Part shown: piece by piece, positions 53 through 40,875 of the stretch | How positions within the stretch are numbered: position 1 is the stretch's first letter | Layout: every line of letters begins with the position of its first letter | Translations under genes and position numbers: made by a program | Notes under the pieces: model-generated | Seen by the model: the letters and a program-made list of their open reading frames with translations, nothing else | Databases searched by the model: none | Told to the model about the DNA's origin: nothing | Origin: Chloroflexota bacterium | GTDB taxonomy: Bacteria; Chloroflexota; UBA11872 | NCBI GenBank assembly: GCA_034423235.1 | Contig: DAOUIX010000141.1 | Location: 2,158 to 66,157 of the forward strand | Direction of reading: 5' to 3' | DNA length: 64,000 nucleotides

Positions 53-2329
53 TTAGCCGCCGGCGTCGTTGGACGCCACGGCGGCCTGGACTTCGCGGGG
101 GGAGGCGGGGAGGTCGCGGATGCGGACGCCGATGGCGTTGGAGATGGCGTTGGCCATGGCCGCCAGGGGCGGGACGATGGGGACTTCGCCGACGCCACGC
201 ACGCCGTACGGGTGACCCGGGTTGGGAACCTCAACGATGACCGTCTCGATCATCGGCAGGTCGAGCGAGGTGGGCATGCGGTAGTCGAGGAAGCTGGCGT
301 TGAGCATGCGGCCTTCAGGGCTGTAGACGTACTCCTCGTTCAGCGCCCAGCCGACGCCCTGGGCAACGCCGCCTTCCATCTGGCCCTCGACGTAGGGCGG
401 GTAGATGGCGGTGCCGGCATCCTGCAAGGCCGTGTAACGCAGGACCTCGACCTTGCCGGTTTCGGTGTCGACTTCCACGTCGGCGATGTGGATGGCAAAG
501 GTGTTGCCGGAGCCATCGGGTGACGCGGTGGCCTTGCCCACGACTTCCAGGCCGTCCTCCTGGAGCGCGGCCGCGGCTTCCTGGAAGCTGAGGCTGGTCC
601 CGTTCTGGCTGAACATGCCAGCCTCGAACGTGACCGAATCAGCGGGCACGTCCCAATAGTCGGCCAGACCCTCGACCATCTGATCTTTCAGGTCCTCCGC
701 GGCCTCGATGGCCGCCCAGCCGGTGGCGAAGGTGACGCGGCTGCCGCCGGTGACGCCAGTGAAGGCGATGGAGTCGGTGTCCGGGACGATCGGGTCCACG
801 TCTTCGATGGGAATGCCCAGGAATTCGGCCAGTTGCATGGCGATGGACGTGCGTGTGCCGCCGATGTCCATGGAGCCTTCCAGCAGGGTGACGGTTCCGT
901 CGCCGTTGAGCCTGGCCACGGCGCTGGACTTGCCGCCGCCGTTGAGCCAGTAGCCGGAGGCCACGCCGCGGCCGCGGCGCTTGGTGCCGGTGGACTCGCC
1001 CAGCGGAGACTGCCAGTGGTCGGTGGCTTCGGCCGCATCGATGGTCTCGATGTTGCCGATGGGGTGGAAGCGCGTGCCGTCCACCCGCAGGTCGCCTTCC
1101 TTGGAGGCGTTGAGGCGGCGGAAGTCGAGGGGGTCCATGTCGAGCTCTTCGCAAATCTCGTCGATCAGGGCGTCGACGGCGAACTCGGCCTGGGGCGCGC
1201 CGGGGGCGCGGTAGGCGTGGGACTTGGGCTTGTTGACGATGACGTCGTAGCCGTCGACGCGGAAGTTCTCGATGTCGAACGGTCCGATGCAGCACAGGCA
1301 GCCGGCACTCACGGCCGAGCCGGGGTAGCCGCCGGCCTCGAAGGCCAGGTCGACGTTGACGGCCGTGATCTTGCCTTCATTGGTGACGCCCATTTTGACG
1401 GTCATGAAGGCGCCGGGAGCCGGGCCGGTGCCGATGAGGACCTCGGTGCGATTCATGGTCATCTTGACCGGGCGGCCGATCTTGCGGGACAGCACGGCCG
1501 CCAGCGGTTCGAGATAGACGGTGGTCTTGCCGCCAAACCCGCCGCCGATTTCCGCCGGGAGCACGCGGATCTTGGACTTGGGGTGCTCGAGCATGGTGGC
1601 CAACTCGTCGCGGATGCCGAAGTGGCCCTGCGAACTGGACTCCACGATCAGGTGGCCGTCCTGGTTCCAGTGGGCAAGGGCGTTGTGCGGCTCGATGTAG
1701 CCCTGGTGGACCATGGCGGTGGAGTAGGAACGCTCCATAATCAGGTCAGCCGCGGCATAGCCGGCCTCGACATCGCCTTCTTCGAAGATGAAGTGCTTGG
1801 CGATGTTGCTGGGGTTGTCATCGAAGACACCGCCGGTCTCGGTGTAGAGGTCGTCCAGGATGACTGGGGCGTCGTCGCGCATGGCTTCGCGGACGTCCAG
1901 CAGGGGCGGCAGGACTTCGTAGTCGACTTCAATCAGGCGCAGGGCTTCCTCGGCCTCGTGCACGCTGGCGGCGGCCACGGCGGCAATGACCTGGCCCTCA
2001 TAAGTGACGCGGCCGCGGGCGATGACCCGCTCGGCCATGTAGCGCAGGCTTTGCATGCCGGACTCGTTGGCCTCGGCCTCGCCGGCGCCCGGGTCGGGAA
2101 AGTCGTCGCCAGTGACCACGGCGAGAACCTGGCTCGAAGCCTCGGCGCGCGACGTGTCGATATTGCGAATGCGAGCCCTGGCGTGCGGGCTGCGCAGCAC
2201 TTTGCCCCAGACCATTCCGGGCATGTGGGCGTCCACGCCGTAGCGTGCGCGTCCCGTGACCTTGTCCACGCCGTCGTGGCGGACCGGTCGGGTTCCAACG
2301 ACTCGATACGCGCCGTTGCCTGCTGTCAT
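53..2329 (-). CDS. Xanthine dehydrogenase/aldehyde oxidase/CO-dehydrogenase-family molybdopterin-binding large subunit (paralog 2)
   Basis: 758 aa. N-terminal YRVVGTRPVRHDG..KVTG.ARYG and a long Mo-binding domain (GGGFGGK, AYRAPGAPQAEF) typical of the XDH/CoxL family. The active-site loop is neither form I (AYxCSFR) nor form II (AYRGAGR). About 55-60% identical by eye to the upstream paralog. Confidence 0.85.
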   Translation of the reverse strand: MTAGNGAYRVVGTRPVRHDGVDKVTGRARYGVDAHMPGMVWGKVLRSPHARARIRNIDTSRAEASSQVLAVVTGDDFPDPGAGEAEANESGMQSLRYMAERVIARGRVTYEGQVIAAVAAASVHEAEEALRLIEVDYEVLPPLLDVREAMRDDAPVILDDLYTETGGVFDDNPSNIAKHFIFEEGDVEAGYAAADLIMERSYSTAMVHQGYIEPHNALAHWNQDGHLIVESSSQGHFGIRDELATMLEHPKSKIRVLPAEIGGGFGGKTTVYLEPLAAVLSRKIGRPVKMTMNRTEVLIGTGPAPGAFMTVKMGVTNEGKITAVNVDLAFEAGGYPGSAVSAGCLCCIGPFDIENFRVDGYDVIVNKPKSHAYRAPGAPQAEFAVDALIDEICEELDMDPLDFRRLNASKEGDLRVDGTRFHPIGNIETIDAAEATDHWQSPLGESTGTKRRGRGVASGYWLNGGGKSSAVARLNGDGTVTLLEGSMDIGGTRTSIAMQLAEFLGIPIEDVDPIVPDTDSIAFTGVTGGSRVTFATGWAAIEAAEDLKDQMVEGLADYWDVPADSVTFEAGMFSQNGTSLSFQEAAAALQEDGLEVVGKATASPDGSGNTFAIHIADVEVDTETGKVEVLRYTALQDAGTAIYPPYVEGQMEGGVAQGVGWALNEEYVYSPEGRMLNASFLDYRMPTSLDLPMIETVIVEVPNPGHPYGVRGVGEVPIVPPLAAMANAISNAIGVRIRDLPASPREVQAAVASNDAGG

Positions 2330-2432
2330 TCCCTGCTCCCGCGGTGCTGTGGTGCGTCTGGATCGAGAACTGATTCCAGAGAGTCTAGCCGTAAGTTATC
2401 CGAGCCTGAGTGAGGGGCGGGGCCGAAGACCC

Positions 2433-2753
2433 TCACCCTGCCCTCTCCCAGAGGAAGAGGGGACGAGGGCTCGATTCCCGATGGGATGGCGCCCCGCCGC
2501 CGAGCGCCTCCACGAAGAACAGCTCGCTGTCGGGCTGGAGCTTGGTGCGCAGGCGGCGGCCGACGTTCGCGCCGTCCACAAAGACCGACAGGCCCGGGCG
2601 GAGCTGGCCGTCCTCGACCAGCCGCCCGCCCAGGCCCGGGTAGCTCGCTTCCAGGCGGTCCACGATTTCCCGAACCGTGGCGCCTTCTATCTCAACCCTG
2701 GCGGCGCCGTCCGTCGCCACCCGCATGGGGGTGGGGATGTGAACGGTCGCCAC
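2433..2753 (-). CDS. CysO/MoaD/ThiS-like sulfur-carrier (beta-grasp) protein with C-terminal extension after GGG
   Basis: 106 aa. TVHIPTPMRVATDGAARVEIEGATVREIVDRLEASYPGLGGRL...VFVDGANV...ELFFVEALGGG resembles mycobacterial CysO / MoaD-family carriers. 19 further residues follow the Gly-Gly before the stop. Confidence 0.6.
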   Translation of the reverse strand: MATVHIPTPMRVATDGAARVEIEGATVREIVDRLEASYPGLGGRLVEDGQLRPGLSVFVDGANVGRRLRTKLQPDSELFFVEALGGGAPSHRESSPRPLFLWERAG

Positions 2754-2759
2754 GGTGGG

Positions 2760-5057
2760 TTACTCCTGCGCAGCCAGAGCCGCTTGCACGCGGGCCGGCG
2801 ACATGGGCAGATGGCTCATGCGGAGGCCGGTCGCGTCGTGAATCGCGTTGGCCACGGCCGCGGGCGGCGGCACGATGGGTACTTCGCCCACGCCGCGAAC
2901 ACCGTAGGGATGCCCGGGGTTGGGCACCTCGACGATGATCGTCTCGATGTTGGGAACGTCGAGCGCGGTCGGCATGCGGTAGTCCAGCAAGCTGGCATTG
3001 AGCAAGTGACCGTCGGCGTTGTAAACGTACTCCTCGTTGAGCGCCCAGCCGACGCCCTGCACGACGCCGCCCTGCATCTGGCCTTCGACGTACGGCGGAT
3101 AAATGGCGACGCCGGCGTCCTGAACGGCGGTGTACCGCAGGACTTCGACTTTGCCGGTTTCTTCATCCACTTCCACGTCGGCAATATGGACGGCGAAGGC
3201 GCCACCCTCGCGGGTGGGCGTGACCGTGTTTTTGCCGATTGGGAATACGCCCTCTTCCTCCAGCAGACCGGCCGCTTCGCCCACGGAGGCCGAGTTGCCG
3301 TTGGCCGAGAATGTACCGTCGGCATGCGCGATTGAGTCAGCGGCGACATCCCAGAGGTCCGCCAGGCCTTCGACAATCTGATCCTTCATGTCGTTGGCGG
3401 CGTTGTGGGCGGCCAGGCCGGTGGCAAAGGTGACCCGGCTGCCGCCGGTGACGTCGGTCTGCCCGACGGAGTCTGTGTCGGCCACGATCGGGTCCACGTC
3501 CTCGACGGAGATTCCCAACGTCTCGGCGAACTGCATGGCGATTGACGTTCGGGTTCCGCCGATGTCGGTTGAACCCTCAAGCAGCGTTACGCTGCCGTCG
3601 CTGTTCAACTTGGCGATCACGCTGGAGGTGAAGCCGATGTTGAACCAGAACCCGGAGGCGATGCCGCGCCCGCGCTTCTTGCCCGGGGCGGTTTCCAGCG
3701 GGGTCTGCCACTGGGCGGAGTCGCGCGCGGCCTCCATGCACTCGATGTGGCCGATGCGCGGATAGGGCGGCTGGGCAAGCTGCCAGTCGCCTTCCTTGGC
3801 GCTGTTCTTGAGGCGGAACTCGACGGGATCGATGTCGAGCGTGCGGCAGATTTCGTCGACCACCGTCTCGCTGGCGAACTCGGCGTGGGTGGCGCCGGGC
3901 GCGCGGTAGGCGTGGGTCTTGGGCTTGTTGACGACGACGTCAAAGCCTTCGACCTTGGCGTTGGGCATGTTGTACGGCGCGAAGACGCAGCGACAGCCCG
4001 CGCCCACGACGGAGCCGGGATAGCCGCCGGCGTCGAATGCCAGGTTGGCGTAGCCAGCGGTGATCATGCCGTCGTTGGTGACGCCCATCTTGACGCGCAC
4101 GTAGCCGCCCGGGGTCGGGCCGGTTGCTTTCAGGACGTCAGCCCGATCCATGGCCATCTTGATGGGATGGCCGGTCTGCTGGGACAGCAGGGCGGCCAGG
4201 GGCTCCAGGTAAGCCGTGGTCTTGCCGCCGAATCCGCCGCCGATCTCCATCGGCACGACATGAATCTTGGTAATCGGGTGATTGAGCAGGTCGGCCAGTT
4301 CCTGCCGGATGGTGAACGCGCCCTGGGAACTGCACCAGACGTGCAGGTGGCCGTCCTTGAGCCAGTTGGCGGTGGCGTTATGGGTTTCGATGTAGCCCTG
4401 GTGGACGACGCCAAACGTGAATTCGCGGTCGACGACCAAGTCCGCCGCTTCAAAGCCGGCATCAACGTCGCCAACCTCGTAAAGCATTTCCGCCGCGACG
4501 TTGCTGGGCTCTTCGGCGGTCGTGCCGTCAGCCCTGGCGGTGTAGAGGTCCTCGATGATGACCGGGGCGTCGGACTTCATTGCGTCCCAGACCTCAAGAA
4601 CCGGGTCGAGCACTTCGTACTCGACGTCGATCAGCTTGAGGGCCTCGGCGGCGACGTGCGGGTTGGCGGCCGCCACGGCGGCGATGGCGTGGCCGTGGTA
4701 GTGGACCTTGCCGCGCGCGAGCATGTTGGCGCTCTTGAATTTGAGCGGAAGACCAGGCGCTTCGCCGCCGCCGGTGAGCTTGTCGCCCGGGTCGGGGAAG
4801 GCGGCGCTGGTAATGACGGCGCGAACGCCGTCCAGGGCCTCGGCGCGGCTGGTGTCGATGCTGACGATGCGGGCATGGGCGTGCGGGCTACGCAGCACCT
4901 TGCCGTGTAGCTGGCCGGGCAGGTTGATGTCGGAGCCGTAGCGCGCTTCGCCGGTGACCTTTTCGAGGCCGTCGTGGCGAATTGGCCGGGTTCCGATGAC
5001 TTTGTATTCCTCGTCGTGATGCTTGATGGTCTGGCCAACTCTGGTGTCTACAGCCAT
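2760..5057 (-). CDS. XDH/CO-dehydrogenase-family molybdopterin-binding large subunit (paralog 1)
   Basis: The ORF track starts at 5240, but the motif-supported start is the internal Met (MAVDTRVGQTIKHHDEEYKVIGTRPIRHDG). Placing the start at 5057 leaves a 3-nt gap to the upstream 2Fe-2S subunit. Carries GGGFGGK and AYRAPGATHAEF motifs. Confidence 0.85.
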   Translation of the reverse strand: MAVDTRVGQTIKHHDEEYKVIGTRPIRHDGLEKVTGEARYGSDINLPGQLHGKVLRSPHAHARIVSIDTSRAEALDGVRAVITSAAFPDPGDKLTGGGEAPGLPLKFKSANMLARGKVHYHGHAIAAVAAANPHVAAEALKLIDVEYEVLDPVLEVWDAMKSDAPVIIEDLYTARADGTTAEEPSNVAAEMLYEVGDVDAGFEAADLVVDREFTFGVVHQGYIETHNATANWLKDGHLHVWCSSQGAFTIRQELADLLNHPITKIHVVPMEIGGGFGGKTTAYLEPLAALLSQQTGHPIKMAMDRADVLKATGPTPGGYVRVKMGVTNDGMITAGYANLAFDAGGYPGSVVGAGCRCVFAPYNMPNAKVEGFDVVVNKPKTHAYRAPGATHAEFASETVVDEICRTLDIDPVEFRLKNSAKEGDWQLAQPPYPRIGHIECMEAARDSAQWQTPLETAPGKKRGRGIASGFWFNIGFTSSVIAKLNSDGSVTLLEGSTDIGGTRTSIAMQFAETLGISVEDVDPIVADTDSVGQTDVTGGSRVTFATGLAAHNAANDMKDQIVEGLADLWDVAADSIAHADGTFSANGNSASVGEAAGLLEEEGVFPIGKNTVTPTREGGAFAVHIADVEVDEETGKVEVLRYTAVQDAGVAIYPPYVEGQMQGGVVQGVGWALNEEYVYNADGHLLNASLLDYRMPTALDVPNIETIIVEVPNPGHPYGVRGVGEVPIVPPPAAVANAIHDATGLRMSHLPMSPARVQAALAAQE

Positions 5058-5059
5058 GG

Positions 5060-5557
5060 CTACGCCTCCGCGCGCATGCGTTCGGCGGCGTCCAGGACGG
5101 CGCGTACGATCTTGTCGTAGCCCGTGCACCGGCAGAGGTTGCCGGCAAGCCACCAGCGAACTTCGTACTCCGTGGGATTCGGGTTTTCTTCCAGCAGGGC
5201 CTTGGCCGCGACGATGAAGCCGGGGGTGCAGACGCCGCACTGGAGGGCGGCGTTTTCAAGGAACGACTGCTGCAGGGGGTGCAGGCCCTCGGGCGAAGCG
5301 ACACCCTCAATGGTTTCGATGGTCGAGCCGGCCGCTTCCACGCTGAGCACGCAGCAGGAGTTGACCAGCACGCCGTCCATGACGACGTTGCAGGCGCCAC
5401 AGTTGCCGTTGTTGCAGCCTTCCTTGGCGCCGGTGAGCCCCAGGTTGTCGCGCAGGACCTCCAGCAGGCTCTCGCGCGGCTCGGCCAGAAAGTCCACCGA
5501 CTCGCCGTTAATGGTGGTCTGAACGTGGACCTTTCCCGACTGGATTTCAGTGGCCAT
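5060..5557 (-). CDS. (2Fe-2S)-binding small subunit of the XDH/CO-DH-family enzyme (CoxS-like)
   Basis: 165 aa from the internal Met. Plant-type ferredoxin Cys cluster CNNGNCGACNV and a second cluster QCGVCTPG...CRCTGY. The track's N-terminal extension was rejected. Confidence 0.85.
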   Translation of the reverse strand: MATEIQSGKVHVQTTINGESVDFLAEPRESLLEVLRDNLGLTGAKEGCNNGNCGACNVVMDGVLVNSCCVLSVEAAGSTIETIEGVASPEGLHPLQQSFLENAALQCGVCTPGFIVAAKALLEENPNPTEYEVRWWLAGNLCRCTGYDKIVRAVLDAAERMRAEA

Positions 5558-6434
5558 TGGTGGGACTGCCTCCCTGGGCGCGAGCCCTGGCGCCGCGCAG
5601 GGCGCGCTGGGTGAGAACGTAGGAGAGCTGCTTGCGATGGGCGATGGTGCCGCGCATGTCGTCGATCGGCGACGCGGCATCGCGGGCGATGTCGGCGGCG
5701 ACCGCAAACGAGTCTTCGTTGGCGGTCAAGCCGATCAGGGCGTCGCCGGCAGCTTGGACGAAGAGTGGCGTAGGGGCCACGGCGCCTAGCGAGACGCGGG
5801 CGGCCGTGATGCTCTCGCCGTCCAACACCAGTGAGGCGCCGGCGCCGACGACCGCGATGTCCATCTCGTTGCGGGGAATGAAGCGCAGGTAGTGCGAACC
5901 CGAGCCAGCCGGTGGCTTGGGGAGGGTGAGAGAGACCAGCAACTCGCCGTCGGCCAACACATTGCGTCCGGGAGCGGTGCAGAAGTCTTCGACGGCCACG
6001 GTTCGCTCACCGTCGGGGCCGGCGATGTTGCAGACGGCCGAGTGGACGATCAGCGGCGGAATGGTGTCTCCGGCCGGGCCGGAGTTGCACAAGTTGCCGC
6101 CGACCGACGCGCGGCCCTGAATGCCGGTGCTGCCGATGATGCGGGCGGCGTCGACCACGGCCCCGTAACTGGCCGCGAACTGAGCGTTGTTGTAGAGCTG
6201 ATGACACGGGACGGCGGCGCCGAGGGTCGTGCTGCCGTCGGCGTTGACCGAGAGGTCCATGAGCTCAGGGATCTTCTTGGCGTCCACGAATACGCCGGTA
6301 TCCCGAGCGTCTTCGCGGACCTGGACGATCAAGTCCGTCCCGCCGGCAAGCATGCGGGCATTGGCGCCATGCTCGGCGAGAATGGCTACAGCGTCCTCGA
6401 CGGTCGAGGGCGCGGCGTACTGAATCGCGCGCAA
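5547..6434 (-). CDS. FAD-binding subunit (CoxM/XdhB-like molybdopterin dehydrogenase FAD-binding domain)
   Basis: 295 aa. MRAIQYAAPSTVEDAVAIL...LAGGTDLIVQ.. FAD-binding PCMH fold. First gene of the M-S-L-carrier-L operon, overlapping the S subunit by 11 nt. Confidence 0.8.
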   Translation of the reverse strand: MRAIQYAAPSTVEDAVAILAEHGANARMLAGGTDLIVQVREDARDTGVFVDAKKIPELMDLSVNADGSTTLGAAVPCHQLYNNAQFAASYGAVVDAARIIGSTGIQGRASVGGNLCNSGPAGDTIPPLIVHSAVCNIAGPDGERTVAVEDFCTAPGRNVLADGELLVSLTLPKPPAGSGSHYLRFIPRNEMDIAVVGAGASLVLDGESITAARVSLGAVAPTPLFVQAAGDALIGLTANEDSFAVAADIARDAASPIDDMRGTIAHRKQLSYVLTQRALRGARARAQGGSPTNGH

Positions 6435-6586: not shown

Positions 6587-7729
6587 TCAGGCGTAGAGCC
6601 CCGCGCCCGGACGCCGACCCCAGGGGCTGGCCATGGCCTGGGGCGAGGCCTGCTCGACGGTGTGGGCGGCCAGGCGGTCGGCGTCGAACTCAATGCCGAA
6701 GCCGGGCCGCTCGCCCAGGACGAGCCAGCCGTCGTTGAGCTGGATGTCGATGTCGAAGAGCGAGTCGCGACCCGCGCCCAGGACTTCAAGCATGGTGTGG
6801 TTGGGCATGGCCGCCGCGGCGTGGGCCATGAAGCTGCCGGGGGAGTTCATCATGGAGACTGGCCTCTCGATGCCGTAGACCATGTCGGCCACGATCATCG
6901 CGCCTGTGATACCGCAGGTATCGCTGCCGACCTGGAAGACGTCGATTGCCCGGTGGTCGATCAGGTGGAGGAACTCGCCGGGGTGCCGCAAGTTTTCGCC
7001 GCTGGCCACCGCGGCCGCCACGCCGTCGGATACCTGGCGGAGGCCGGTGGCGTCCCAGCGACGGGCGGGTTCTTCGATCCAGGTGAGATCGAAGTTGCGT
7101 TCGATCTCACGCACCCGGCGGATGGCTTCCTTGGGGGTCCAGAACTCGTTGACGTCCAGCATCAGGTCGACGCGCTTGCCGGAGGTGGCCAGGGCGTCGC
7201 GCATGATGCCGAGGCGGCGCAGGTCGTCCTGGAAGTCTGCCCCACCCTTGAGCTTTCCGGCCGAGATCCCCTGCGCGGCCATGCCGGCGTAATAGGCGTA
7301 TAGCTCCTCGTCGGACAGCGGCGAGTCGAGGCCGCTGGCGTAGGCGCGCACGCGCGGCGAGGAGGCGCCCAGCGTGCGCCAGAGCGGCTCGTCGTTGGCC
7401 TTGGCCTTCAGATCCCAAAGAGCCAGGTCGAGTGCGGACAGCCCCACGGCCGCCGGTCCCACGGGGCCCAGCTTGAACACGGAGTCCATCATCTGCTTCC
7501 ACAGGCCGCGCACGCCGCGTGGATCCGATCCGATCAGCCGGCCGGCCAGGCTCTGGACGTGGGGGCGTCCGGGTGGACTGCCAAGACCCAGGCCGGTGAT
7601 GCCGGCGTCGGTGTCCACGTAGACGACCAGGCCGGAGTTGAGCGAACGACCGGAAGGGCTGTTGACGTCGCCCAGGGGACGGGCCAATTCGTATTCGAAG
7701 ACGACAGTACGAATCTCGGTGATGCGCAT
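6587..7729 (-). CDS. Enolase-superfamily enzyme (mandelate racemase / muconate lactonizing enzyme family)
   Basis: 380 aa. MRITEI.TVVFEYEL N-terminal capping domain, a KxK-containing barrel (GKLKGG), and metal-ligand region DVNEFW...WIEEP...DHRAIDVFQ. Confidence 0.8.
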   Translation of the reverse strand: MRITEIRTVVFEYELARPLGDVNSPSGRSLNSGLVVYVDTDAGITGLGLGSPPGRPHVQSLAGRLIGSDPRGVRGLWKQMMDSVFKLGPVGPAAVGLSALDLALWDLKAKANDEPLWRTLGASSPRVRAYASGLDSPLSDEELYAYYAGMAAQGISAGKLKGGADFQDDLRRLGIMRDALATSGKRVDLMLDVNEFWTPKEAIRRVREIERNFDLTWIEEPARRWDATGLRQVSDGVAAAVASGENLRHPGEFLHLIDHRAIDVFQVGSDTCGITGAMIVADMVYGIERPVSMMNSPGSFMAHAAAAMPNHTMLEVLGAGRDSLFDIDIQLNDGWLVLGERPGFGIEFDADRLAAHTVEQASPQAMASPWGRRPGAGLYA

Positions 7730-8269: not shown

Positions 8270-8626
8270 CTAGACGAGAGCCAGGAAGATTGCGGTCAGG
8301 ACCGCCACGGCTACCGCGGCACCATAGGCCACGAGGGCAATTAGCCCGCCAGGTAGCGGTGCGTGCAGGTCCACGGCGAGGTGGCGCAGGCGGTGGCAGG
8401 CGTGGACGGCGATCAGGGCGACGACTGCTCCGATGGCCAGCCGCACGATGGCGTGCTGGAGGAGATCGCGGATTCCGTCGTAGGTGAGGGCGTCGGCGAA
8501 CCAGCGCCAGCCGAAGGGGCCGACGACGGACGTCACCAATATGATCGCCGGGACGAACACGGCGGCCAGCACGCTGCCGGCCGCGAACAGCGACCAGAAC
8601 AGGGCTTCGTGCGAGCGGCCGCTCAC
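8270..8626 (-). CDS. Succinate dehydrogenase/fumarate reductase small membrane-anchor subunit (FrdD/SdhD-like)
   Basis: About 118 aa with 3 predicted TM helices. GTG start overlaps the upstream gene's stop (GTGA). Last gene of an A-B-C-D operon. The track's 239-aa version is a spurious extension. Confidence 0.5.
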   Translation of the reverse strand: MSGRSHEALFWSLFAAGSVLAAVFVPAIILVTSVVGPFGWRWFADALTYDGIRDLLQHAIVRLAIGAVVALIAVHACHRLRHLAVDLHAPLPGGLIALVAYGAAVAVAVLTAIFLALV

Positions 8627-8994
8627 GTCGCGCCCACCCAGGCCACCCAGAGGAAGAGAAGCACGGTAACCGCGGCCAGTCCGGCGAACTGCTGACCGAT
8701 GATGAAGGCTGCCGGGATGCGGCGACCGGCGACCTGGCTGGGCAGCGCGCTCGGGGCGATCAGGAAGAACGTGATGGTGTGCCAGAGCGCAAACGCGAGC
8801 GCCACGAGGTGGAACACCACCATCAGCGGATGCCAGAGGAAGTCTCGAAAGGCCAGGTAGGTCTCCGCGTCCTGCCCGGCCTTGTGGATCAAGAGCATGA
8901 AGAACACGATCTCGGCCAGGATGAAGGCCGAGCTGACCTCGCGCAGGAATATCCGAAAGTAGGACCCCTTCTGGGTCCACCAATTCCACCCCAT
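8623..8994 (-). CDS. Succinate dehydrogenase/fumarate reductase membrane-anchor subunit (FrdC/SdhC-like)
   Basis: About 123 aa from the internal Met (MGWNWWTQKGSYFRIF...), 3 TM helices. Lies immediately downstream of the Fe-S subunit gene. Confidence 0.55.
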   Translation of the reverse strand: MGWNWWTQKGSYFRIFLREVSSAFILAEIVFFMLLIHKAGQDAETYLAFRDFLWHPLMVVFHLVALAFALWHTITFFLIAPSALPSQVAGRRIPAAFIIGQQFAGLAAVTVLLFLWVAWVGAT

Positions 8995-9014
8995 ACGCCG
9001 GTCGAGCGGCCGGT

Positions 9015-9761
9015 TCACGAGCGCCTGGCCCAGGGCGTCAGCAGCCGCTTGTAGTAGTCGACGGCGCCTTCCAGCTTGGCCTGCTGGATGGCGCCCGCGG
9101 GGTCGACGTGCTTGGGGCAGACCTCGGAGCACTCGCCCACGAAGGTGCACTCCCAGATCCCTTCGTTCTGGAAGATCACGTCCTGCCGCAGCTGCTTGCC
9201 CTGATCGCGAGAGTCCAGGTTGTAGCGCTGGGCGAGCGCGAGCGCGGCGGGACCGATGAAGTCGTCCACGCGGCCAATCACCGGGCAGGCCGCGTAGCAG
9301 AGCATGCAGTTGATGCACATGCTGAACTGCTTGTAGCGGTCCAGCTGGGTCGGCGTTTGCATGTACTCGGCACTCAGGTCGTCGGCTTCGTCCTCGCGCA
9401 CCAGGTAGGGCTTGACGTGGTCGAGCTTCTCCATGAAGCCGTTCATGTCGACCACGAGGTCGCGCTCCACCGGGAAGTTGATGAGTGGCTCAACGCGAAC
9501 CGGCCCGGGCATGTGATCGCGCAGGAACGCGGCACAGGTGAGCGACGGTTCGCCGTTGACCTGCATGCCGCAGGAGCCGCAGACGCCCATGCGGCAGGAC
9601 CAGCGGAAGCTCAGGGAGCCGTCGATGTAGTTCTTGACATAATTCAAGGCGTCCAGGACGACCCAGTCGTCGTGATACGGCACTTCATAAGATTGGAAAG
9701 TCGGCCCACCGTTATCGGGGCGATAGCGAAAGACTTCGAGCTGGATTGTCGTTTCGCTCAC
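9015..9761 (-). CDS. sdhB: Succinate dehydrogenase/fumarate reductase iron-sulfur subunit
   Basis: 248 aa. 2Fe-2S motif [15 protein letters not shown], 4Fe-4[13 protein letters not shown] and 3Fe-4[13 protein letters not shown]. Confidence 0.9.
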
Positions 9762-9766
9762 TGTGC

Positions 9767-11587
9767 CTACTTCCCGTCCTTCTCGCCGGACGATCCGTAC
9801 ACGCGTTCAGCCGGTGGCCAGCGTGTGATTACCACGTCCTTGTACTCGATGCGCGGGTCGCCGTCGGTGCGGTAGGCCATGGAGTGCTTGAGATAGTTGG
9901 CGTCGTCGCGCGTGGCGTAGTCGGTTCGTTGATGGGATCCGCGCGACTCGGTGCGATCGAGGGCCGCGTGGGCCAGCGCCTGCGAGATGTCGACCATGCA
10001 GTCGAGCTCGAGCGCGCTGATAAGTTCGGTGTTGTAGACGGGACTCGAATCGTCGAGGGATATCCGAGTCACACGGTCTTCAAGCTCGCGAAGCGTTCCG
10101 CAGCAGGCGGATAGCGAAGCCTCGTCGCGAAATATTCCGGCGCCGGCTTCCATGGCCGTGGTCAGGTCGTCGCGAATGACGGCAATGCGCTCTCCGCCAG
10201 ACGGGCGCGCGCGAAGGTCCTCAATGCGGTCGCGCTCCGAGCTCACCTGGCGATCCACCTCCGGCCCGTCGGCTAGCTGCTGGCCGCCGACCGCGGCCGC
10301 CGCGTGACGGCCGGCGCGCGCTCCGAACACCACCAGTTCCGTGAGCGAATTCGATCCCAGCCGGTTGGCGCCGTTGATGCTGACGCAGGCGCATTCGCCG
10401 GCGGCGTACAGGCCGGGGAGGGTCGTTAAGCCGTGCACGTCGGTGTCGATACCGCCCATCATGTAGTGGACGACGGGCCGCACGGGGATCGGCTCGACGA
10501 CCGGATCGATCCCGGCGTAATTGGATGCGAGCTCTCGCACAAACGGAATCCGGGTGTCGATTAGTTCTTCGCCGAGATGCCGCACGTCGAGATGCACATA
10601 GTCCCCATAGTCGCCCTGGAACGTCCGTCCGGCGGCCTGCTCGTGCATGAACGCCTGTGACAGGCGGTCACGCGGACCCAGCTCCATCGTTCGATTCTGA
10701 GGGTGCCGCGGGTCGTGGATGTCCAGGGGCTCGCCAAGGTCATAGTCCTGCAAATAGCGGCGGTTTTCCGTGTTTAGAAGAATGCCGCCCTCGCCGCGCG
10801 AGGCTTCCGTGATCAGGATGCCGGTGCCGGGCAAGCCGGTGGGGTGGTACTGCACAAACTCCATGTCCTTCAGCGCCACGCCCGCGCGATAGGCGAGGGC
10901 CAGGCCATCACCGGTCTTGATGGAGCCGTTGGTGGTGAACGGAAAGATCCGGCCGAAACCGCCGGTACAGATGATGACGGCGTTGGCACGGAGCACGTGC
11001 AACTCGCCCGTGCGCAGTTCCAGCGCCACGCATCCTTGGCAGCGGCCGTCCGCCGTGATCAAGCTCGTGGCGAAGTATTCGTCGTAGCGCGTGATCTGGC
11101 TGAATTGCAGCGAGGTCTGAAAGAGCGCGTGCAGCACATGGAAGCCGGTCTTGTCGGCCGCGTACCAGGTGCGTTCGATCTGCATGCCGCCGAATGGCCG
11201 CACGGCGACGTGCCCCGAGTCTTCGCGGCTCCAGGGACAGCCCCAGTGCTCCAGCTGGATCAGTTCGCGCGGGGCCTCGTCCACGAACATCTCGACGGCG
11301 TCCTGGTCGGCCAGCCAGTCGGAGCCGCTGATCGTGTCGTAAATGTGGTGCTCGCGCGCATCGTTTCCCTTGATCACCGCGGCCATGCCGCCCTCGGCGG
11401 CCACCGTGTGGCTGCGCATGGGGTAGACCTTGGACACGAGGCCGATTGAGAGATCGGGGTTGGATTCGACAACCGCCATAGCAGCGCGAAGGCCGGCGCC
11501 GCCGGCCCCGATGACGAGAATGTCGTGTCGGATTTCGTTCACGAAAGTGATCTTAGGGACGCCGGGCAGGGGCCGCAATCGACCCAC
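9767..11587 (-). CDS. sdhA: Succinate dehydrogenase/fumarate reductase flavoprotein subunit
   Basis: 606 aa. Dinucleotide fold [15 protein letters not shown], covalent-FAD His region [10 protein letters not shown], and typical Frd/Sdh catalytic regions. The true start may be a few codons downstream of 11587. Confidence 0.9.
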
Positions 11588-11641
11588 GCGGTCCGTCCGA
11601 TTCGGTCAGTCGGATAACGTACGTGTCCCGTCGAGCGCAGC

Positions 11642-12838
11642 TCATGCTCCGTCACGTGACGTCTCTCGAGACGACCGGCCGGAGCGCCTGAGCTCGCCCA
11701 GCACATCGGGGCGCCGCTCGAGGAGAGCCAGGAGCGCCTGCTTGGTGGCGTCCCGGCGCTCCGGCGCTTCCGAGTCATTGGACGCGTCCAGGGCACGCAG
11801 CTCCGCGAGCAGATCGGCGGCTACCAGCTCGGGGTCCGCGGCCGGCCGACGGCGCCAGCCGCGCCGCCAAATCACCAGCGCCAGCCCCGCCACGACCGCC
11901 GGAACCGCGGCGAAGATCGCCCAGCGGTCGGCCGTCGTGGCGCGAAGCGTGCGTACGATGCCGGGCAGCGACGTGTCGGCAATCCGAACGCCAAACGACT
12001 GACGCGCTGGTACCCCGTTTTTCTGCCAGCGAAGGACCCTGGTGCCTCCGAAGGCGTCGTCGCCACGTGCCTCCAGCCCGGTGACCGTCGTGGTTAGCGG
12101 GCCGGTCTCAACCAGCAGAATCGCGACATCGGTATTCAGCGCCGGCACCCAATCGAAGGCGACGGTCCCGCCGTCGAGCGCCAATTGGTAGCCGTAAACC
12201 ATCGTCGTCACGCCTGGTTGGAGTCCGGCGAAGACCGCGAAGCCCGGTCCGCCGATGACGGCGTCACCGGGCCCGAAGCCCGCGACCGGCTGCAAGTTGA
12301 ACGCGCCATCGGGGACGCCGAACCGCAACGGCGGAGGCGAGCCCGGCTGCTGCACCGGCAGGTAGGCGCGGTCGCCGGGTACGTGCACCTCGGCGACTTC
12401 GACAACCGAGAGCGTGTCAGCCGTCTGGCGTCTGAGCAGGCGGGTCAGGCTCTGAAAGCTGATGCCAGGATCGGTCTCGGTCACGGCAAAGACTTCGATC
12501 TCAACCGCCGTGCGCTCACCCGCTGCTACCTGAAGCACATCGCTGCTGTAGCGGACGCCCTCAGCCTCGAACGAGATGAGATAGGCGTATTCGCCGCCGG
12601 CAGCCACGTCGGCGAACACGAAGGCGCCGTCGGCACCTACCGCAGTCTCGCTGGTGGGCAGGCGATCAGTCTGTCGAAACCCGTCAAGCCTGACCAAGAG
12701 GCCCGATGGCAATGCCGCGCCCGGCGTGGCCGGCCGCAGGCGCCCGACGATTTCACCACTTCCCTCGGCCTGCACGCCGGCTACGCCGACGATGGCAAGG
12801 GCGAATAGCACGGCGACTAGTCCAAGCGCTCGTTTCAT
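11642..12838 (-). CDS. Secreted, C-terminally membrane-anchored protein with carboxypeptidase-regulatory-like (CarbopepD_reg) domain; last gene of the ccm operon
   Basis: Signal peptide MKRALGLVAVLFALAIVGVAGVQA. G.IVGRL....G..LPSGLLVRLDG...T..DGAFVFADV resembles the CarbopepD_reg fold. C-terminal TM (AIFAAVPAVVAGLALVIW) followed by RRGWRRR. Its ATG overlaps the upstream gene's stop (ATGA). Confidence 0.5.
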   Translation of the reverse strand: MKRALGLVAVLFALAIVGVAGVQAEGSGEIVGRLRPATPGAALPSGLLVRLDGFRQTDRLPTSETAVGADGAFVFADVAAGGEYAYLISFEAEGVRYSSDVLQVAAGERTAVEIEVFAVTETDPGISFQSLTRLLRRQTADTLSVVEVAEVHVPGDRAYLPVQQPGSPPPLRFGVPDGAFNLQPVAGFGPGDAVIGGPGFAVFAGLQPGVTTMVYGYQLALDGGTVAFDWVPALNTDVAILLVETGPLTTTVTGLEARGDDAFGGTRVLRWQKNGVPARQSFGVRIADTSLPGIVRTLRATTADRWAIFAAVPAVVAGLALVIWRRGWRRRPAADPELVAADLLAELRALDASNDSEAPERRDATKQALLALLERRPDVLGELRRSGRSSRETSRDGA

Positions 12839-14073
12839 CGCCAGGTGGTTCCCGCGTCGCGGCTGCGGAATACCGAGCCGTCGGCCGCGACCGCGTAGAG
12901 CGTGCGTCCGGTAATCGCCAGCGCACGCACGTCCGCGCGCAGGGGAAGCTGCACCCACGACTGCATGCCGTCGACGGACTTGAATACGCCGGCGTCGGTG
13001 GCCACGAAGGCGGCGCCCTCAAATCGCTCGCCGGACGCCGAACTGTAGGAGTCGCCGGTTTCGGGCTCGTAGACCACGGCCCGGACGGTGATCGTGGGCA
13101 GGACGCCGTTGACGAAGCCGTTGGCACCGCGCCAGCCGCCGGTGCTCTCGGAGGCGAGCACGCCTTCAGCGCCGGTGGCCGCCAGTAGAAATGGGGTGCC
13201 GAAGTCGACGAGGGCCAGACCCGTAAGGCTGAGCGGAGCGTCGGCGGGGCCTGACTCCCAGCTGCGGCCCATGTCATTGCTCACGAAAATCGACCCGGAG
13301 TCATCGACGCCAGCCAGTCCCCGGGTTCGCAGTCCAATGGCTAGTCGCCGGAACGCCGGGAAGCCGGACTCGCGACCCCAGGTGGCGCCATGATCCCGAC
13401 TTGACCACACGCCGTCGCGGGCGAGCACGTAGAGCGCGTCGGAGCCTGCCGCGGCGCCCACGGCTTCTCCCGGACCCTCGGCGGGCGCCCAGGTCTGCCC
13501 GCCGTCACGGCTCAGCTGCGCGCCGGTGGCGTGGCTGACGAGCAGCAGATTGGCGTTGCCGGCCGCTACGGCCGTTCCCGAGATTGCCGCGACGCCGACG
13601 TTGCCGACAGGTTCCTGTTCGGCGGCCGCGGATCGCGCTCCGACGGTGATCACGACGACCAGCGCGCCCAGCAGCGTCACCAGCGCGACGCTCGGCGCAA
13701 CCCACGCCAGCGTCCGAGCACGCGAGGGTGTCCGAGCCGCCACCGGGACGGCGGTGGGCGCCTCGCCTCCAACCAGCGCCTCCACCGCGGCATCCAGGCG
13801 CCGGCGTCGCTGGTCGCGCTCGTGCAGTCGCCGCGCGGTATCTCGCCTAACGTCGCCGCTGACCCGCTCGAAATCCGCGTTGCTGATGGCTCCCCGATCG
13901 CGTTCGGCCTGCAAGTCGTCCAGCATTCGCAGCCCGCGCTCCACGGCCAGGTCGTCATCGGGTCCGATCAAGTCGCCGCGTTCGAGCGATCGACGCAGCA
14001 GCGGAGCGATGATCCAGGCCAGTCCGGCAAGGGCGATCAGGAGGACCGCCAGGCTCAGCAGGGGCGCCGTCAC
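12835..14073 (-). CDS. CcmI (CycH) N-terminal domain fused to a BNR/Ycf48-like beta-propeller
   Basis: GTG start overlaps the ccmH stop (GTGA). N-terminus VTAPLLSLAVLLIALAGLAWIIAPLLRR...DDDLAVERGLRMLDDL matches the CcmI membrane/helical module. C-terminal half carries at least four S-x-D-x-G-x-T/S-W BNR motifs (SRDGGQTW, SRDHGATW, SNDMGRSW, SRDAGTTW). Confidence 0.6.
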   Translation of the reverse strand: MTAPLLSLAVLLIALAGLAWIIAPLLRRSLERGDLIGPDDDLAVERGLRMLDDLQAERDRGAISNADFERVSGDVRRDTARRLHERDQRRRRLDAAVEALVGGEAPTAVPVAARTPSRARTLAWVAPSVALVTLLGALVVVITVGARSAAAEQEPVGNVGVAAISGTAVAAGNANLLLVSHATGAQLSRDGGQTWAPAEGPGEAVGAAAGSDALYVLARDGVWSSRDHGATWGRESGFPAFRRLAIGLRTRGLAGVDDSGSIFVSNDMGRSWESGPADAPLSLTGLALVDFGTPFLLAATGAEGVLASESTGGWRGANGFVNGVLPTITVRAVVYEPETGDSYSSASGERFEGAAFVATDAGVFKSVDGMQSWVQLPLRADVRALAITGRTLYAVAADGSVFRSRDAGTTWR

Positions 14074-16552: not shown

Positions 16553-16602
16553 GGCCGGTTCGCGCTAGCGGCGCGGTCCGAGTCGTCGCCGCCGAGTTCT
16601 TG

Positions 16603-40147: not shown

Positions 40148-40447
40148 ATGGCCAGAGTGAAGCCCTCGGCCGCCACGTCGCCGCCCGAGGCCCCCGACCT
40201 TATTGCCGTGCGCGTCTTGTGCTTCGCCTCGCTGGCGGACCTGATGGGCGAACGGCGGCGCACCGTCAACCTGCCGTCTGGCGCCACCATCGCTGACGCC
40301 TTGAACGAACTGGCGAACGATGTGCCTGAGATCACCTGCCGTGCGCCGCACGTCTCGTTCGCCCTCAACGAAGCGTTTGTGCCCGCGGACACGCCTCTGT
40401 CGGACGGCGACGAACTGGCGCTCATCCCTCCGGTCTCCGGCGGATGA
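40148..40447 (+). CDS. moaD: Molybdopterin synthase sulfur-carrier subunit MoaD
   Basis: Ends ...ELALIPPVSGG and overlaps moaE by 4 nt. The functional start is probably the internal TTG/GTG (IAVRVLCFASL...), giving about 80 aa. Confidence 0.75.
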   Translation: MARVKPSAATSPPEAPDLIAVRVLCFASLADLMGERRRTVNLPSGATIADALNELANDVPEITCRAPHVSFALNEAFVPADTPLSDGDELALIPPVSGG

Positions 40448-40875
40448 TCGTCGAACTCACGTCGGACCCCATCGACGTTCCGCGGCTGATCGACCACGTC
40501 AACCAGCCGTCCAATGGCGGCATCTGCACATTTCTCGGCGTCGTGCGCGACAACGCCGACGGCCGGCCGGTCGTCAAGCTCGGCTACGAGGCCTACGAGT
40601 CGATGGCCGTCGCGCAGATGCGTACGATCGTCGAGGAGGCCATGCGGCGCTGGGACCTGGACGCCGTGGCGCTCTCACACCGTACCGGCGAACTGCGGAT
40701 CGGCGAGGCCAGCGTCGCCATCGCCGTCGGCGCACCCCATCGCGCCGAGGCCTTCGAGGCCTGCCGCTTCATCATCGACACGCTCAAGACCCGTGTCCCG
40801 ATCTGGAAGAAGGAGTTCTTCCAGGACGGTGCCGTTTGGGTCGAACCCGTGTCCTCCCAATCGTCGGCGGGCTGA
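40444..40875 (+). CDS. moaE: Molybdopterin synthase catalytic subunit MoaE
   Basis: GGICTFLGVVRD...SVAIAVGAPHRAEAFEACRFIID.LK...PIWKKE, MoaE signature. Confidence 0.85.
   Translation: MIVELTSDPIDVPRLIDHVNQPSNGGICTFLGVVRDNADGRPVVKLGYEAYESMAVAQMRTIVEEAMRRWDLDAVALSHRTGELRIGEASVAIAVGAPHRAEAFEACRFIIDTLKTRVPIWKKEFFQDGAVWVEPVSSQSSAG

What the first reader, a model, noticed from the sequence alone, without database searches (positions are those of the whole stretch)
53..6434. XDH/CO-dehydrogenase-family operon with two tandem Mo-large-subunit paralogs sharing one FAD and one FeS subunit, and a CysO-like sulfur carrier between them
Gene order on the minus strand is M(FAD)-S(2Fe2S)-L1-carrier-L2. Both L proteins have AYRAPGA(T/P) in the active-site loop, matching neither form I nor form II CoxL, so the substrate is unknown. 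The small gene between them is CysO/MoaD-like but continues 19 residues past the Gly-Gly, so a JAMM-type protease would be needed to expose it. None is nearby. Members of this family need a terminal sulfido ligand on the Mo cofactor. A dedicated sulfur-carrier in the operon could be a non-canonical sulfuration route and might explain the absence of xdhC/coxF-type maturation genes here.
Basis: partly seen in the sequence, partly recalled or inferred. Interest (0 to 1): 0.6.

Follow-up and report, generated by a model that had tools for sequence, protein, structure and literature searches.

The report
Sulfur-carrier gene inside molybdenum-enzyme operon
A small CysO-type sulfur-carrier gene is a conserved fourth member of one clade of xanthine-dehydrogenase-family operons, probably supplying sulfur to the enzyme's molybdenum cofactor; the second large-subunit gene and the carrier's 19-residue tail are later, secondary additions.

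Summary
On the minus strand lie FAD subunit M, 2Fe-2S subunit S, Mo subunit L1, a 106-aa ThiS-family gene (T) and a second Mo subunit L2. All five are intact and under purifying selection.

T is CysO-like by profile and by fold, and is distinct from the canonical moaD-moaE pair at 40.1-40.9 kb in the same window.

- **Ancestral unit:** M-S-L-T is the ancestral unit. 44 of 47 T relatives of at least 40% identity sit beside an L1-like XDH-family operon, many with no L2. L2 is a later tandem duplicate placed after T.
- **Tail:** The 19-residue tail is not a family trait. A ~105-nt dispersed-repeat insertion sits in front of the old stop codon. The closest relatives read GGG-TAG, and about half of all orthologues end at Gly-Gly.
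- **Distant relatives:** These sit in classical JAMM/ThiF/CysM operons. The XDH-linked clade has lost that linkage.

No XdhC, CoxDEFG, JAMM or E1 gene lies in the 64 kb. A role in delivering sulfur to the Mo cofactor is plausible but untested, and the substrate is unknown.

The parts
5547..6434 (-). M: FAD-binding medium subunit (295 aa, TTG start)
   Evidence: Pfam FAD_binding_5 1e-37 and CO_deh_flav_C 3e-20. dN/dS 0.07-0.11.
5060..5557 (-). S: small subunit with two [2Fe-2S] domains (165 aa); its start overlaps the end of M by 11 nt
   Evidence: Pfam Fer2_2 5e-31 and Fer2 1e-6. The nearest NCBIfam family is glyceraldehyde dehydrogenase gamma, below its cut-off.
2760..5057 (-). L1: molybdopterin-binding large subunit (765 aa), loop motif HAYRAPGAT. 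It is the orthologue of the single L in M-S-L-T operons elsewhere.
   Evidence: Three XDH-family Pfam domains. The best solved relative is HcrA, 1rm6_A, at 1e-91. Tree and motifs. dN/dS 0.05-0.11.
2493..2753 (-). T core: CysO-type beta-grasp sulfur-carrier protein, residues 1-87, ending LGGG. GTG start lies 6 nt after the L1 stop, with AGGAG 9 nt upstream.
   Evidence: Pfam ThiS. PDB profile hits to CysO. AlphaFold pLDDT 85-92 over residues 1-84, and Foldseek best match is CysO. dN/dS about 0.09-0.25.
2433..2492 (-). 19-codon tail of T plus stop (APSHRESSPRPLFLWERAG*), encoded entirely by inserted repeat DNA
   Evidence: Absent from close relatives, which read GGC GGC GGC TAG. Predicted disordered, pLDDT below 50 from residue 85. 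Tails are variable among orthologues.
2388..2492 (-). Insertion of about 105 nt of a dispersed repeat, with core GGGAGAGGGCAGGGTGAGGG. It lies between the GGG codon and the ancestral stop codon (TAG at 2385-2387).
   Evidence: DNA comparison with L002, L003, L006 and L007. The same core occurs at unrelated sites, L031:15451 and L015:14876. Longer versions sit at the same site in L001 and L005.
53..2329 (-). L2: second molybdopterin-binding large subunit (758 aa), loop motif HAYRAPGAP, about 62% identical to L1
   Evidence: Pfam. Present only in the Chloroflexota clade, and sister to L1 in the tree. dN/dS 0.07-0.09, so not a pseudogene.
40148..40875 (+). Context, not part of the operon: canonical moaD (99 aa, ends VSGG*) overlapping moaE
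   Evidence: Pfam ThiS 1e-17 and MoaE 1.5e-41. hhalign of the T profile against this MoaD gives only 9.7% probability.

Best explanation
The locus is a four-gene module, M-S-L-T: an XDH-family Mo-hydroxylase (FAD, 2x[2Fe-2S] and Mo subunits) plus a dedicated CysO-type sulfur-carrier protein translated just after L. A tandem duplicate of L (L2) has been added downstream.

**Proposed mechanism (inferred):**
1. An E1 enzyme encoded elsewhere (MoeB/MoeZ type) adenylates T at its C-terminal Gly-Gly.
2. The adenylate is converted to a thiocarboxylate.
3. T donates that sulfur to the molybdenum cofactor of the enzyme it is co-expressed with. The most likely target is the cyanolysable terminal Mo=S ligand that this enzyme family needs, as installation or repair.

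In this particular strain a dispersed repeat landed in front of T's stop codon. T is therefore made with a disordered 19-residue tail. That tail must be trimmed, by a JAMM-type or other peptidase not encoded here, before T can act.

**Shown:** the anatomy, the CysO-type identity of T, conservation of M-S-L-T, the secondary origin of L2 and of the tail, and purifying selection on all genes.

**Inferred:** thiocarboxylate formation, the sulfur acceptor, and tail processing. The oxidised substrate is unknown.
For: - **T is CysO-type.** Profile hits to 4n6e_B (3e-18) and 3dwg_C (6e-13). The fold matches the same chains at target-normalised TM-score 0.85-0.88.
- **Gly-Gly is conserved.** It is invariant in all orthologues, and about half end exactly there.
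- **The linkage is specific.** 44 of 47 T relatives of at least 40% identity lie directly after, or within 2 kb of, an L1-like XDH-family gene, usually with a gap of 25 nt or less. This holds in Chloroflexota and in unrelated metagenomic contigs.
- **Distant relatives differ.** Relatives below 40% identity lie in ThiF-CysO-CysM or JAMM-CysO-MoeZ operons.
- **T is not the housekeeping MoaD.** A canonical moaD-moaE pair is present in the window.
- **T stays functional with a tail.** T core dN/dS is about 0.09 inside a clade where every member has a tail.
- **No standard maturation genes nearby.** No XdhC or CoxF gene lies in the window or in the flanks of related loci.
- **Precedent.** MoaD-like genes aorD and aorE in a tungsten-enzyme operon are regarded as maturation factors and are absent from the purified enzyme (PMC6365974).
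Against: - No E1, rhodanese, cysteine desulfurase or JAMM gene is linked in any of about 45 loci, so no step of the proposed relay is seen.
- Known Mo=S insertion uses persulfide donors (XdhC with NifS-type desulfurase, or ABA3). No thiocarboxylate route has been described (established knowledge; literature searches found none).
- About half of the orthologues carry 2-50 extra residues after Gly-Gly and are still conserved. This could mean a free C-terminus is not needed.
- Three close T relatives are not next to XDH genes (L028; L040; L073, which follows a P450). L030 has M-S-T with no L within 10 kb.
- XdhC could simply be encoded elsewhere in the genome.
Confidence: 0.42

Rival explanations
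1. T is a non-catalytic beta-grasp partner of the enzyme: a fourth subunit, assembly chaperone or ubiquitin-like modifier. Its free C-terminal carboxylate is dispensable, and no sulfur chemistry is involved.
For: - About half of the XDH-linked orthologues have tails of 2-50 residues with no JAMM gene nearby.
- The core remains under strong purifying selection in a clade where all members have tails.
- Tight translational coupling to L suggests roughly 1:1 synthesis.
Against: - Gly-Gly is invariant even in lineages with tails, and the ancestral state is Gly-Gly followed by stop.
- The nearest relatives are bona fide carriers with E1, JAMM and CysM partners, many of which also carry short tails.
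- No XDH-family enzyme with a beta-grasp subunit is known (own knowledge).
Confidence: 0.17
2. T is a second, enzyme-dedicated MoaD that works with MoaE to build the dithiolene of molybdopterin for this operon's enzymes.
For: - NCBIfam's best matches are SAMP1, which doubles as MoaD in Haloferax, and archaeal MoaD. Both are below their cut-offs.
- The MoaD-like genes aorD and aorE in the AOR operon are a precedent.
Against: - A canonical, translationally coupled moaD-moaE pair is already present at 40148-40875.
- T resembles CysO far more than MoaD: hhalign probability is 9.7% against the window's MoaD, and MoaD structures rank 13th and lower in Foldseek.
- No second moaE accompanies T in any locus.
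Confidence: 0.12
3. T-thiocarboxylate is a sulfur donor for a small-molecule product of the pathway, not for the cofactor. The hydroxylase and the carrier act in successive steps, or the Mo=S is itself transferred to substrate and T re-sulfurates it each turnover.
For: - CysO-type carriers are recruited to thiosugar synthesis; the closest structure is 4n6e, the BexX/CysO complex.
- A metallopterin enzyme that transfers its sulfido ligand to a heterocycle and is re-sulfurated each cycle exists: MES (PMC9516567).
- One close T relative follows a P450 rather than an XDH gene.
Against: - No sulfurtransferase, PLP enzyme or other biosynthetic partner is conserved next to the module. The neighbours differ between lineages.
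- The catalytic Glu and other hydroxylase motifs are retained.
Confidence: 0.1
4. In this strain T has been disabled by the repeat insertion and is on its way to being a pseudogene. The operon now runs without it.
For: - The insertion is recent, since relatives with 92-98% identical T lack it.
- T core dN/dS against the closest insertion-free relative is 0.25, higher than the 0.05-0.08 of the neighbouring genes, although this rests on few sites.
Against: - The core is intact.
- The same allele is fixed in six samples.
- Other lineages have kept a tailed T under strong constraint for long periods.
- Tails are common in CysO-type carriers.
Confidence: 0.08

Closest known systems
CysO sulfur carrier of the Mycobacterium tuberculosis CysO-CysM-Mec+-MoeZ cysteine pathway (PDB 3dwg, 3dwm) and Amycolatopsis orientalis CysO (PDB 4n6e, BexX complex)
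   Same: Same beta-grasp fold. Same N-terminal V-H/S-I-P-T-x-L/M-R motif. Same length of about 87-93 aa. C-terminal Gly-Gly at the end of the last strand. These are the best sequence-profile and fold matches.
   Different: T is not linked to CysM, JAMM or MoeZ. It is linked to an XDH-family L gene instead. Here Gly-Gly is masked by a repeat-derived tail.
MoaD-like genes aorD/aorE in the tungsten aldehyde oxidoreductase operon of Aromatoleum aromaticum (PMC6365974)
   Same: A ThiS/MoaD-family gene embedded in the operon of a pterin-cofactor oxidoreductase. It is presumed to be a cofactor maturation factor and not part of the purified enzyme.
   Different: The enzyme family differs: AOR with W-bis-pterin, against XDH-family Mo-MPT/MCD. 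T is CysO-like rather than MoaD-like. Function is unproven in both cases.
XdhC/PaoD/CoxF-type Moco chaperones with NifS-type desulfurase, or eukaryotic ABA3/HMCS
   Same: These would serve the same need, namely installing the terminal sulfido ligand that XDH-family enzymes require.
   Different: The proteins and the chemistry are entirely different: persulfide donor plus Moco-binding chaperone. None is encoded in the window or in the flanks of related loci.
Heterotrimeric bacterial XDH-family enzymes: 4-hydroxybenzoyl-CoA reductase HcrABC (1rm6), E. coli XdhABC, Sulfolobus glyceraldehyde oxidoreductase, CoxLMS
   Same: M, S and L have the same domain sets and conserved motifs. HcrA is the nearest solved L, at 1e-91.
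   Different: Scores fall far below every NCBIfam equivalog cut-off, for example 450-472 bits against 995 for HcrA. The active-site loop AYRAPGA(T/P) is neither form I (AYxCSFR) nor form II (AYRGAGR). There is an extra carrier gene and a second L.

Membership tests
ThiS/MoaD/CysO sulfur-carrier superfamily (for T) | Beta-grasp fold of about 65-100 residues | tested here: met
   Pfam ThiS E=3e-7 over residues 7-87. AlphaFold core pLDDT 85-92. Foldseek top hits are CysO, SAMP1, Urm1 and MoaD.
ThiS/MoaD/CysO sulfur-carrier superfamily (for T) | Gly-Gly at the extreme C-terminus, available for adenylation | tested here: not met
   In this window Gly-Gly (G86-G87) is followed by 19 residues. About half of the orthologues do end at Gly-Gly followed by stop, and Gly-Gly itself is invariant. 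The feature is met only after hypothetical trimming.
ThiS/MoaD/CysO sulfur-carrier superfamily (for T) | Cognate E1-like adenylating enzyme (ThiF/MoeB/MoeZ) in the genome | not testable with these tools
   None in the 64-kb window or in flanks of about 45 related loci. Whole genomes could not be scanned.
ThiS/MoaD/CysO sulfur-carrier superfamily (for T) | Formation of a C-terminal thiocarboxylate | not testable with these tools
   Biochemical property; requires mass spectrometry.
CysO proper (cysteine biosynthesis carrier) | Operon linkage to CysM (PLP enzyme), Mec+ (JAMM) and/or MoeZ | tested here: not met
   Relatives below 40% identity have this linkage. T and its relatives of at least 40% identity do not.
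MoaD (molybdopterin synthase small subunit) | Partner MoaE, usually adjacent; MoaD-type sequence ending in PP(V/I)SGG | tested here: not met
   The canonical moaD-moaE pair is elsewhere in the window. hhalign of T against that MoaD gives 9.7% probability. No moaE lies beside T in any locus.
Xanthine dehydrogenase / Mo-hydroxylase family (for M, S, L1, L2) | L with Ald_Xan_dh_C, MoCoBD_1 and MoCoBD_2; S with two 2Fe-2S domains; M with FAD_binding_5 and CO_deh_flav_C | tested here: met
   All domains are full length with E-values of 1e-20 to 1e-69.
Xanthine dehydrogenase / Mo-hydroxylase family (for M, S, L1, L2) | Conserved GGGFGGK segment and C-terminal catalytic Glu (G-x-G-E-x-P) | tested here: met
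   GGGFGGK and GVGEVP are present in both L1 and L2. Equating these with the catalytic residues rests on my knowledge of the family, not on a structure-based alignment made here.
Form I CoxL (true CO dehydrogenase) | Active-site loop AYxCSFR with the Cu-binding Cys; coxDEFG accessory genes | tested here: not met
   The loop is AYRAPGAT / AYRAPGAP, with no Cys. No accessory genes are present. NCBIfam CO_dehy_Mo_lg scores 297 bits against a cut-off of 991.
Form II CoxL | Loop AYRGAGR | tested here: not met
   The loop is AYRAPGA(T/P).
4-hydroxybenzoyl-CoA reductase (HcrABC) | NCBIfam equivalog scores for alpha, beta and gamma | tested here: not met
   Alpha scores 450-472 bits against a cut-off of 995. 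Beta scores 126 against 405. Gamma scores 161 against 258.

The most novel reading that the evidence does not exclude
The M-S-L-T enzymes may not be ordinary hydroxylases. They could be XDH-family sulfur-transferring enzymes in which the Mo=S ligand is delivered to the substrate, giving C-S bond formation on a heterocycle or aldehyde-level carbon. This would be analogous to the metallopterin ergothioneine synthase. The co-encoded CysO-type thiocarboxylate would re-sulfurate molybdenum every turnover. A milder version is an XdhC-independent, thiocarboxylate-based route for installing or repairing Mo=S; I put that at about 0.3-0.4, and it is part of the best explanation.
Probability: 0.06. Interest if true: 0.85.

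Novelty: new variant of a known kind. Interest (0 to 1): 0.45.

Why it matters
XDH-family enzymes are inactive without a terminal sulfido ligand on molybdenum. The only known routes for installing it use XdhC-type chaperones with cysteine desulfurases, or the eukaryotic Moco sulfurase.

A CysO-type carrier that is consistently co-encoded with one clade of these enzymes, across Chloroflexota and other uncultured lineages, gives a concrete candidate to test. It could be a second, thiocarboxylate-based route, or a new accessory subunit.

The clade belongs to the large pool of 'coxL-like' genes of unknown function that dominate sponge-symbiont Chloroflexota (PMC8941161). A handle on its maturation or chemistry would therefore help in reading those genomes.

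The locus also shows how a small dispersed repeat landing on a stop codon produces C-terminal extensions. Read from one genome alone, such an extension looks like a designed pro-sequence.

Tried and rejected
- **Frameshift or assembly error extending T:** rejected. The identical ORF occurs in six independent samples. The extension is explained by a 105-nt in-frame insertion.
- **L2 as a pseudogene:** rejected. It has full-length domains and motifs, and dN/dS of 0.07-0.09.
- **T as the housekeeping MoaD:** rejected.
- **Conserved acceptor cysteine in the L clade:** only one nearly conserved Cys, at L1 position 404. It is Ala in two single-L orthologues, so it is not a defining feature.
- **Riboswitch or other RNA, such as the Moco motif:** Rfam found nothing in the whole window.
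- **Terminator between T and L2 created by the insert:** no terminator-like site on the minus strand. The insert's fold is no better than shuffles, z = -0.6.
- **Substrate clue from neighbours:**
  - The MR/MLE enolase-superfamily gene (6587-7729) is conserved only in the closest clade.
  - Deeper Chloroflexota relatives have the operon directly after the fumarate reductase/SDH genes.
  - Other lineages have unrelated neighbours, so no substrate could be inferred.
- **T fusion proteins among distant representatives:** T fused to a membrane domain, a hydrolase-like region, a methyltransferase-like region and GTP cyclohydrolase I. These assignments were read by eye and not scanned. The partners are heterogeneous and uninformative.
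- **L1-T read-through fusion:** L1 and T are in the same frame here, separated by TAA plus two codons. The frames differ in L029, L037 and L043, so this is coincidental.
- **Literature:** searches for a ThiS/CysO link to XDH-family maturation returned nothing.

Full report
**1. What is there**

The window is about 67% G+C. On the minus strand, five co-directional genes fill 53-6434:
- M, 5547-6434, 295 aa: FAD_binding_5 plus CO_deh_flav_C.
- S, 5060-5557, 165 aa: Fer2 plus Fer2_2. Its start overlaps the end of M.
- L1, 2760-5057, 765 aa. Its ATG lies immediately after the S stop. The longer GTG ORF starting at 5240 overlaps S and is not the gene.
- T, 2433-2753, 106 aa, ThiS family.
- L2, 53-2329, 758 aa.

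Both L proteins have the three XDH-family domains at full length. Both have GGGFGGK and GVGEVP, and the loops HAYRAPGAT (L1) and HAYRAPGAP (L2). T starts at a GTG 6 nt after the L1 stop, with AGGAG 9 nt upstream.

**2. The small protein is a CysO-type carrier, not MoaD**

- The Pfam ThiS profile ends at G87 (LGGG), and 19 residues follow.
- A profile of T orthologues hits A. orientalis CysO (4n6e_B, 3e-18), M. tuberculosis CysO (3dwg_C, 6e-13) and the Thermus MoaD-related protein.
- An AlphaFold model has pLDDT 85-92 for residues 1-84 and below 50 from residue 85 onward.
- The best Foldseek matches are the same CysO chains, with target-normalised TM-score 0.85-0.88. SAMP1, Urm1 and MoaD follow.
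- NCBIfam gives only sub-threshold SAMP1 and archaeal MoaD hits.
- The window also contains a canonical, overlapping moaD-moaE pair at 40148-40875 and a MoCF_biosynth gene at 39536-40072.
- The T profile aligns to that MoaD with only 9.7% hhalign probability.

T is therefore an additional carrier.

**3. The tail is a repeat insertion**

T homologues share a highly conserved core up to Gly-Gly. Their C-termini differ in length and sequence.

- DNA comparison shows that the closest relatives (L002, L003, L006, L007, L009-L012 and others) read ...GGC GGC GGC TAG ACTTTC.
- The window has about 105 nt inserted between the GGG codon and that same TAGACT (insert about 2388-2492, old stop at 2385-2387).
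- L001 and L005 carry versions of 310-383 nt at the same site.
- L004, L008, L013 and L017 carry a 7-nt insertion, GC(A/G)CCGC. It shifts the frame past the TAG and gives a 22-residue tail running to the L2 start. Whether that is an excision footprint is my inference.
- The 20-nt core of the insert recurs at unrelated positions in related genomes (L031:15451, L015:14876), with extended similarity, so it is a dispersed repeat. Only one copy lies in this window.
- The identical 106-aa ORF is found in six JGI samples, which excludes an assembly frameshift.
- Overall, about 22 XDH-linked orthologues end exactly at Gly-Gly and about 23 carry 2-50 extra residues.
- In a clade where every member has a tail of about 27 residues (L019-L024, L027), the core has median dN/dS 0.09 and the tail about 0.4. 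A tailed T therefore remains functional, and the tail itself is weakly constrained.
- Canonical CysO genes from JAMM/MoeZ operons also often carry one to about 30 residues after Gly-Gly. Extensions are therefore a common feature of this carrier type and not a peculiarity of this locus.

**4. The conserved unit is M-S-L-T; L2 is an add-on**

I scanned GTDB species genomes and metagenomes with the T alignment and looked up individual homologues. That gave 47 loci with T at least 40% identical to the window's.
- 44 of them have T directly after an L1-like XDH-family gene, typically with a gap of 25 nt or less. The two exceptions among the 44 are L039, with two genes in between, and L030, with M-S-T and no L within 10 kb.
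- The three unlinked loci are L028, L040 and L073, where T follows a P450.
- Twenty-seven Chloroflexota MAG species have M-S-L1-T-L2, and L025 has a third L. L029, L037, L043 and L072 have M-S-L-T with no L2; L047 and L074 show S-L-T at a contig start; L038 shows L-T at a contig start; L039 has no L2 either.
- In a neighbour-joining tree with midpoint rooting, L1 and L2 are sister clades, and the single-L proteins fall outside. The single-L proteins L029, L038, L039 and L043 share L1's AYRAPGAT loop; L037 reads AYRAPGGT and L047 reads AYRAPGSP.
- L1 and L2 are about 62% identical everywhere.
- All five genes show dN/dS of 0.05-0.25.
- Relatives of T below 40% identity lie in ThiF-CysO-CysM or JAMM-CysO-MoeZ operons.
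- tblastn with those JAMM, MoeZ, ThiF and CysM proteins finds nothing in the window or in loci L001-L048.

**5. What the enzyme is**

- L1 and L2 are below every NCBIfam equivalog cut-off. The best are 4-hydroxybenzoyl-CoA reductase alpha (450-472 bits against 995), XdhA and glyceraldehyde dehydrogenase alpha.
- The nearest solved structure is HcrA, 1rm6_A, at 1e-91.
- The loop matches neither CoxL form.
- Neighbours give no consistent clue to the substrate (section 8).
- The relatives are MAGs labelled Chloroflexota. I take isolate and bin names such as RHO, COS and jk18x to be from sponge studies; that is my inference, and sample metadata were not checked.
- This would fit the large Chloroflexi-dominated coxL cluster of unknown function reported in sponge symbionts (PMC8941161).

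**6. Maturation genes**

Pfam scans of about 65 ORFs covering the window found no XdhC/CoxF, CoxD/E/G, JAMM, ThiF, rhodanese or desulfurase. The 7 kb beyond the window start holds none, and neither do the flanks of L037, L039, L070-L072 and L074. Whole genomes could not be searched, so the absence applies only to these neighbourhoods.

**7. Interpretation**

The strongest conclusion is comparative. A CysO-derived carrier has been captured as a dedicated accessory of one clade of XDH-family enzymes, and it is under purifying selection there.

Three things favour a thiocarboxylate-forming carrier over a mere structural partner:
- The Gly-Gly is invariant.
- The ancestral state is Gly-Gly followed by stop.
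- The nearest relatives are classical carriers.

The acceptor is unknown. I consider sulfur supply to the enzyme's own Mo cofactor most likely, specifically the terminal sulfido ligand, because:
- the canonical MoaD/MoaE machinery for the dithiolene is present separately;
- T is synthesised together with L;
- no biosynthetic partner for a sulfur-containing metabolite is conserved;
- no XdhC-type gene accompanies any of these operons.

This remains inference, with confidence of about 0.4. The precedents are indirect: MoaD-like aorD and aorE in a tungsten-enzyme operon (PMC6365974), and per-turnover re-sulfuration of a metallopterin enzyme (PMC9516567).

The rivals are a structural or ubiquitin-like role, a dedicated MoaD, a sulfur donor for a metabolite, and strain-specific inactivation. 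They are listed with their tests in the Rival explanations section.

**8. What led nowhere**

- Rfam found nothing in the whole window.
- There is no terminator on the minus strand, and the insert folds no better than shuffles.
- No invariant cysteine in L could act as a sulfur acceptor.
- The MR/MLE gene upstream is conserved only in the closest clade, and deeper clades have the operon directly after the SDH/fumarate reductase genes.
- Distant T fusion proteins have heterogeneous partners.
- Literature searches found no report of a ThiS/CysO gene in XDH-family operons.

**9. Verdict**

The finding is a new genomic variant of two known kinds of system, a sulfur-carrier protein and a Mo-hydroxylase. 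It is of moderate interest and testable.

Noticed in passing
window 39536-40875: Canonical Moco biosynthesis genes: a MoCF_biosynth (MoaB/Mog-like) gene on the minus strand, and an overlapping moaD (ends VSGG*) and moaE pair on the plus strand. No moeB/ThiF gene accompanies them.
   Followed up: partly
window 2388-2492; L031:15370-15520; L015:14795-14945; L001:2418-2800; L005:8467-8776: A dispersed intergenic repeat family with core GGGAGAGGGCAGGGTGAGGG occurs in these Chloroflexota genomes. At the T stop codon it is found as 105-nt, 310-nt and 383-nt versions. In other species the same site carries a 7-nt GC(A/G)CCGC insertion, which might be an excision footprint.
   Followed up: partly
window 2753-2762: L1 and T are in the same reading frame, separated only by TAA plus two codons (…AAQE* P T V/M ATVH…). 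The arrangement is shared by the closest clade but not by L029, L037 or L043, so it is probably coincidental rather than a read-through fusion.
   Followed up: partly
L025:12841-15114: One Chloroflexota MAG has a third tandem L gene after L2 (M-S-L1-T-L2-L3), showing continuing amplification of the large subunit.
   Followed up: no
window 8270-27700: A large respiratory gene block lies upstream: fumarate reductase/succinate dehydrogenase (8270-11587), cytochrome c maturation genes ccmABEFH (14070-19414), and an alternative complex III-like cluster (ActD, NrfD, 4Fe-4S, molybdopterin-oxidoreductase-like and multihaem subunits, 20443-27346). Placement of the SDH genes next to the XDH operon is conserved in deeper Chloroflexota clades (L070, L071).
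   Followed up: partly
window 6587-7729: An enolase-superfamily (MR/MLE) acid-sugar-dehydratase-like gene lies directly upstream of M. Its best NCBIfam hit is L-talarate/galactarate dehydratase, far below cut-off. It is conserved only in the closest clade (L002-L018). A link to sugar-acid or aldehyde oxidation is possible but unsupported.
   Followed up: partly
L073:4579-6264: A T-like carrier (52% identical, ends at Gly-Gly) sits immediately after a cytochrome P450 gene that is called in two pieces, instead of after an XDH-family gene.
   Followed up: no
L063, L064, L065, L066 (CysO genes of JAMM-MoeZ operons): Several canonical CysO homologues have extensions of about 30 residues after Gly-Gly that end in cysteine-rich motifs (…CCCASCCCR, …CCCSSNR). 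These look like a conserved pro-sequence or metal-binding tail.
   Followed up: no
window 43481-45439 and 50084-52471: A RACo-type reductive activator of corrinoid proteins lies at 43481-45439 on the minus strand. A 795-aa tryptophan-halogenase-like flavoprotein lies at 50084-52471 on the minus strand. Both are typical of organohalide or corrinoid metabolism in marine Chloroflexota.
   Followed up: no
window 11642-12958, 22373-23722, 46799-48166: Three long ORFs (438, 449 and 455 aa) have coding-type GC3 but no Pfam match.
   Followed up: no
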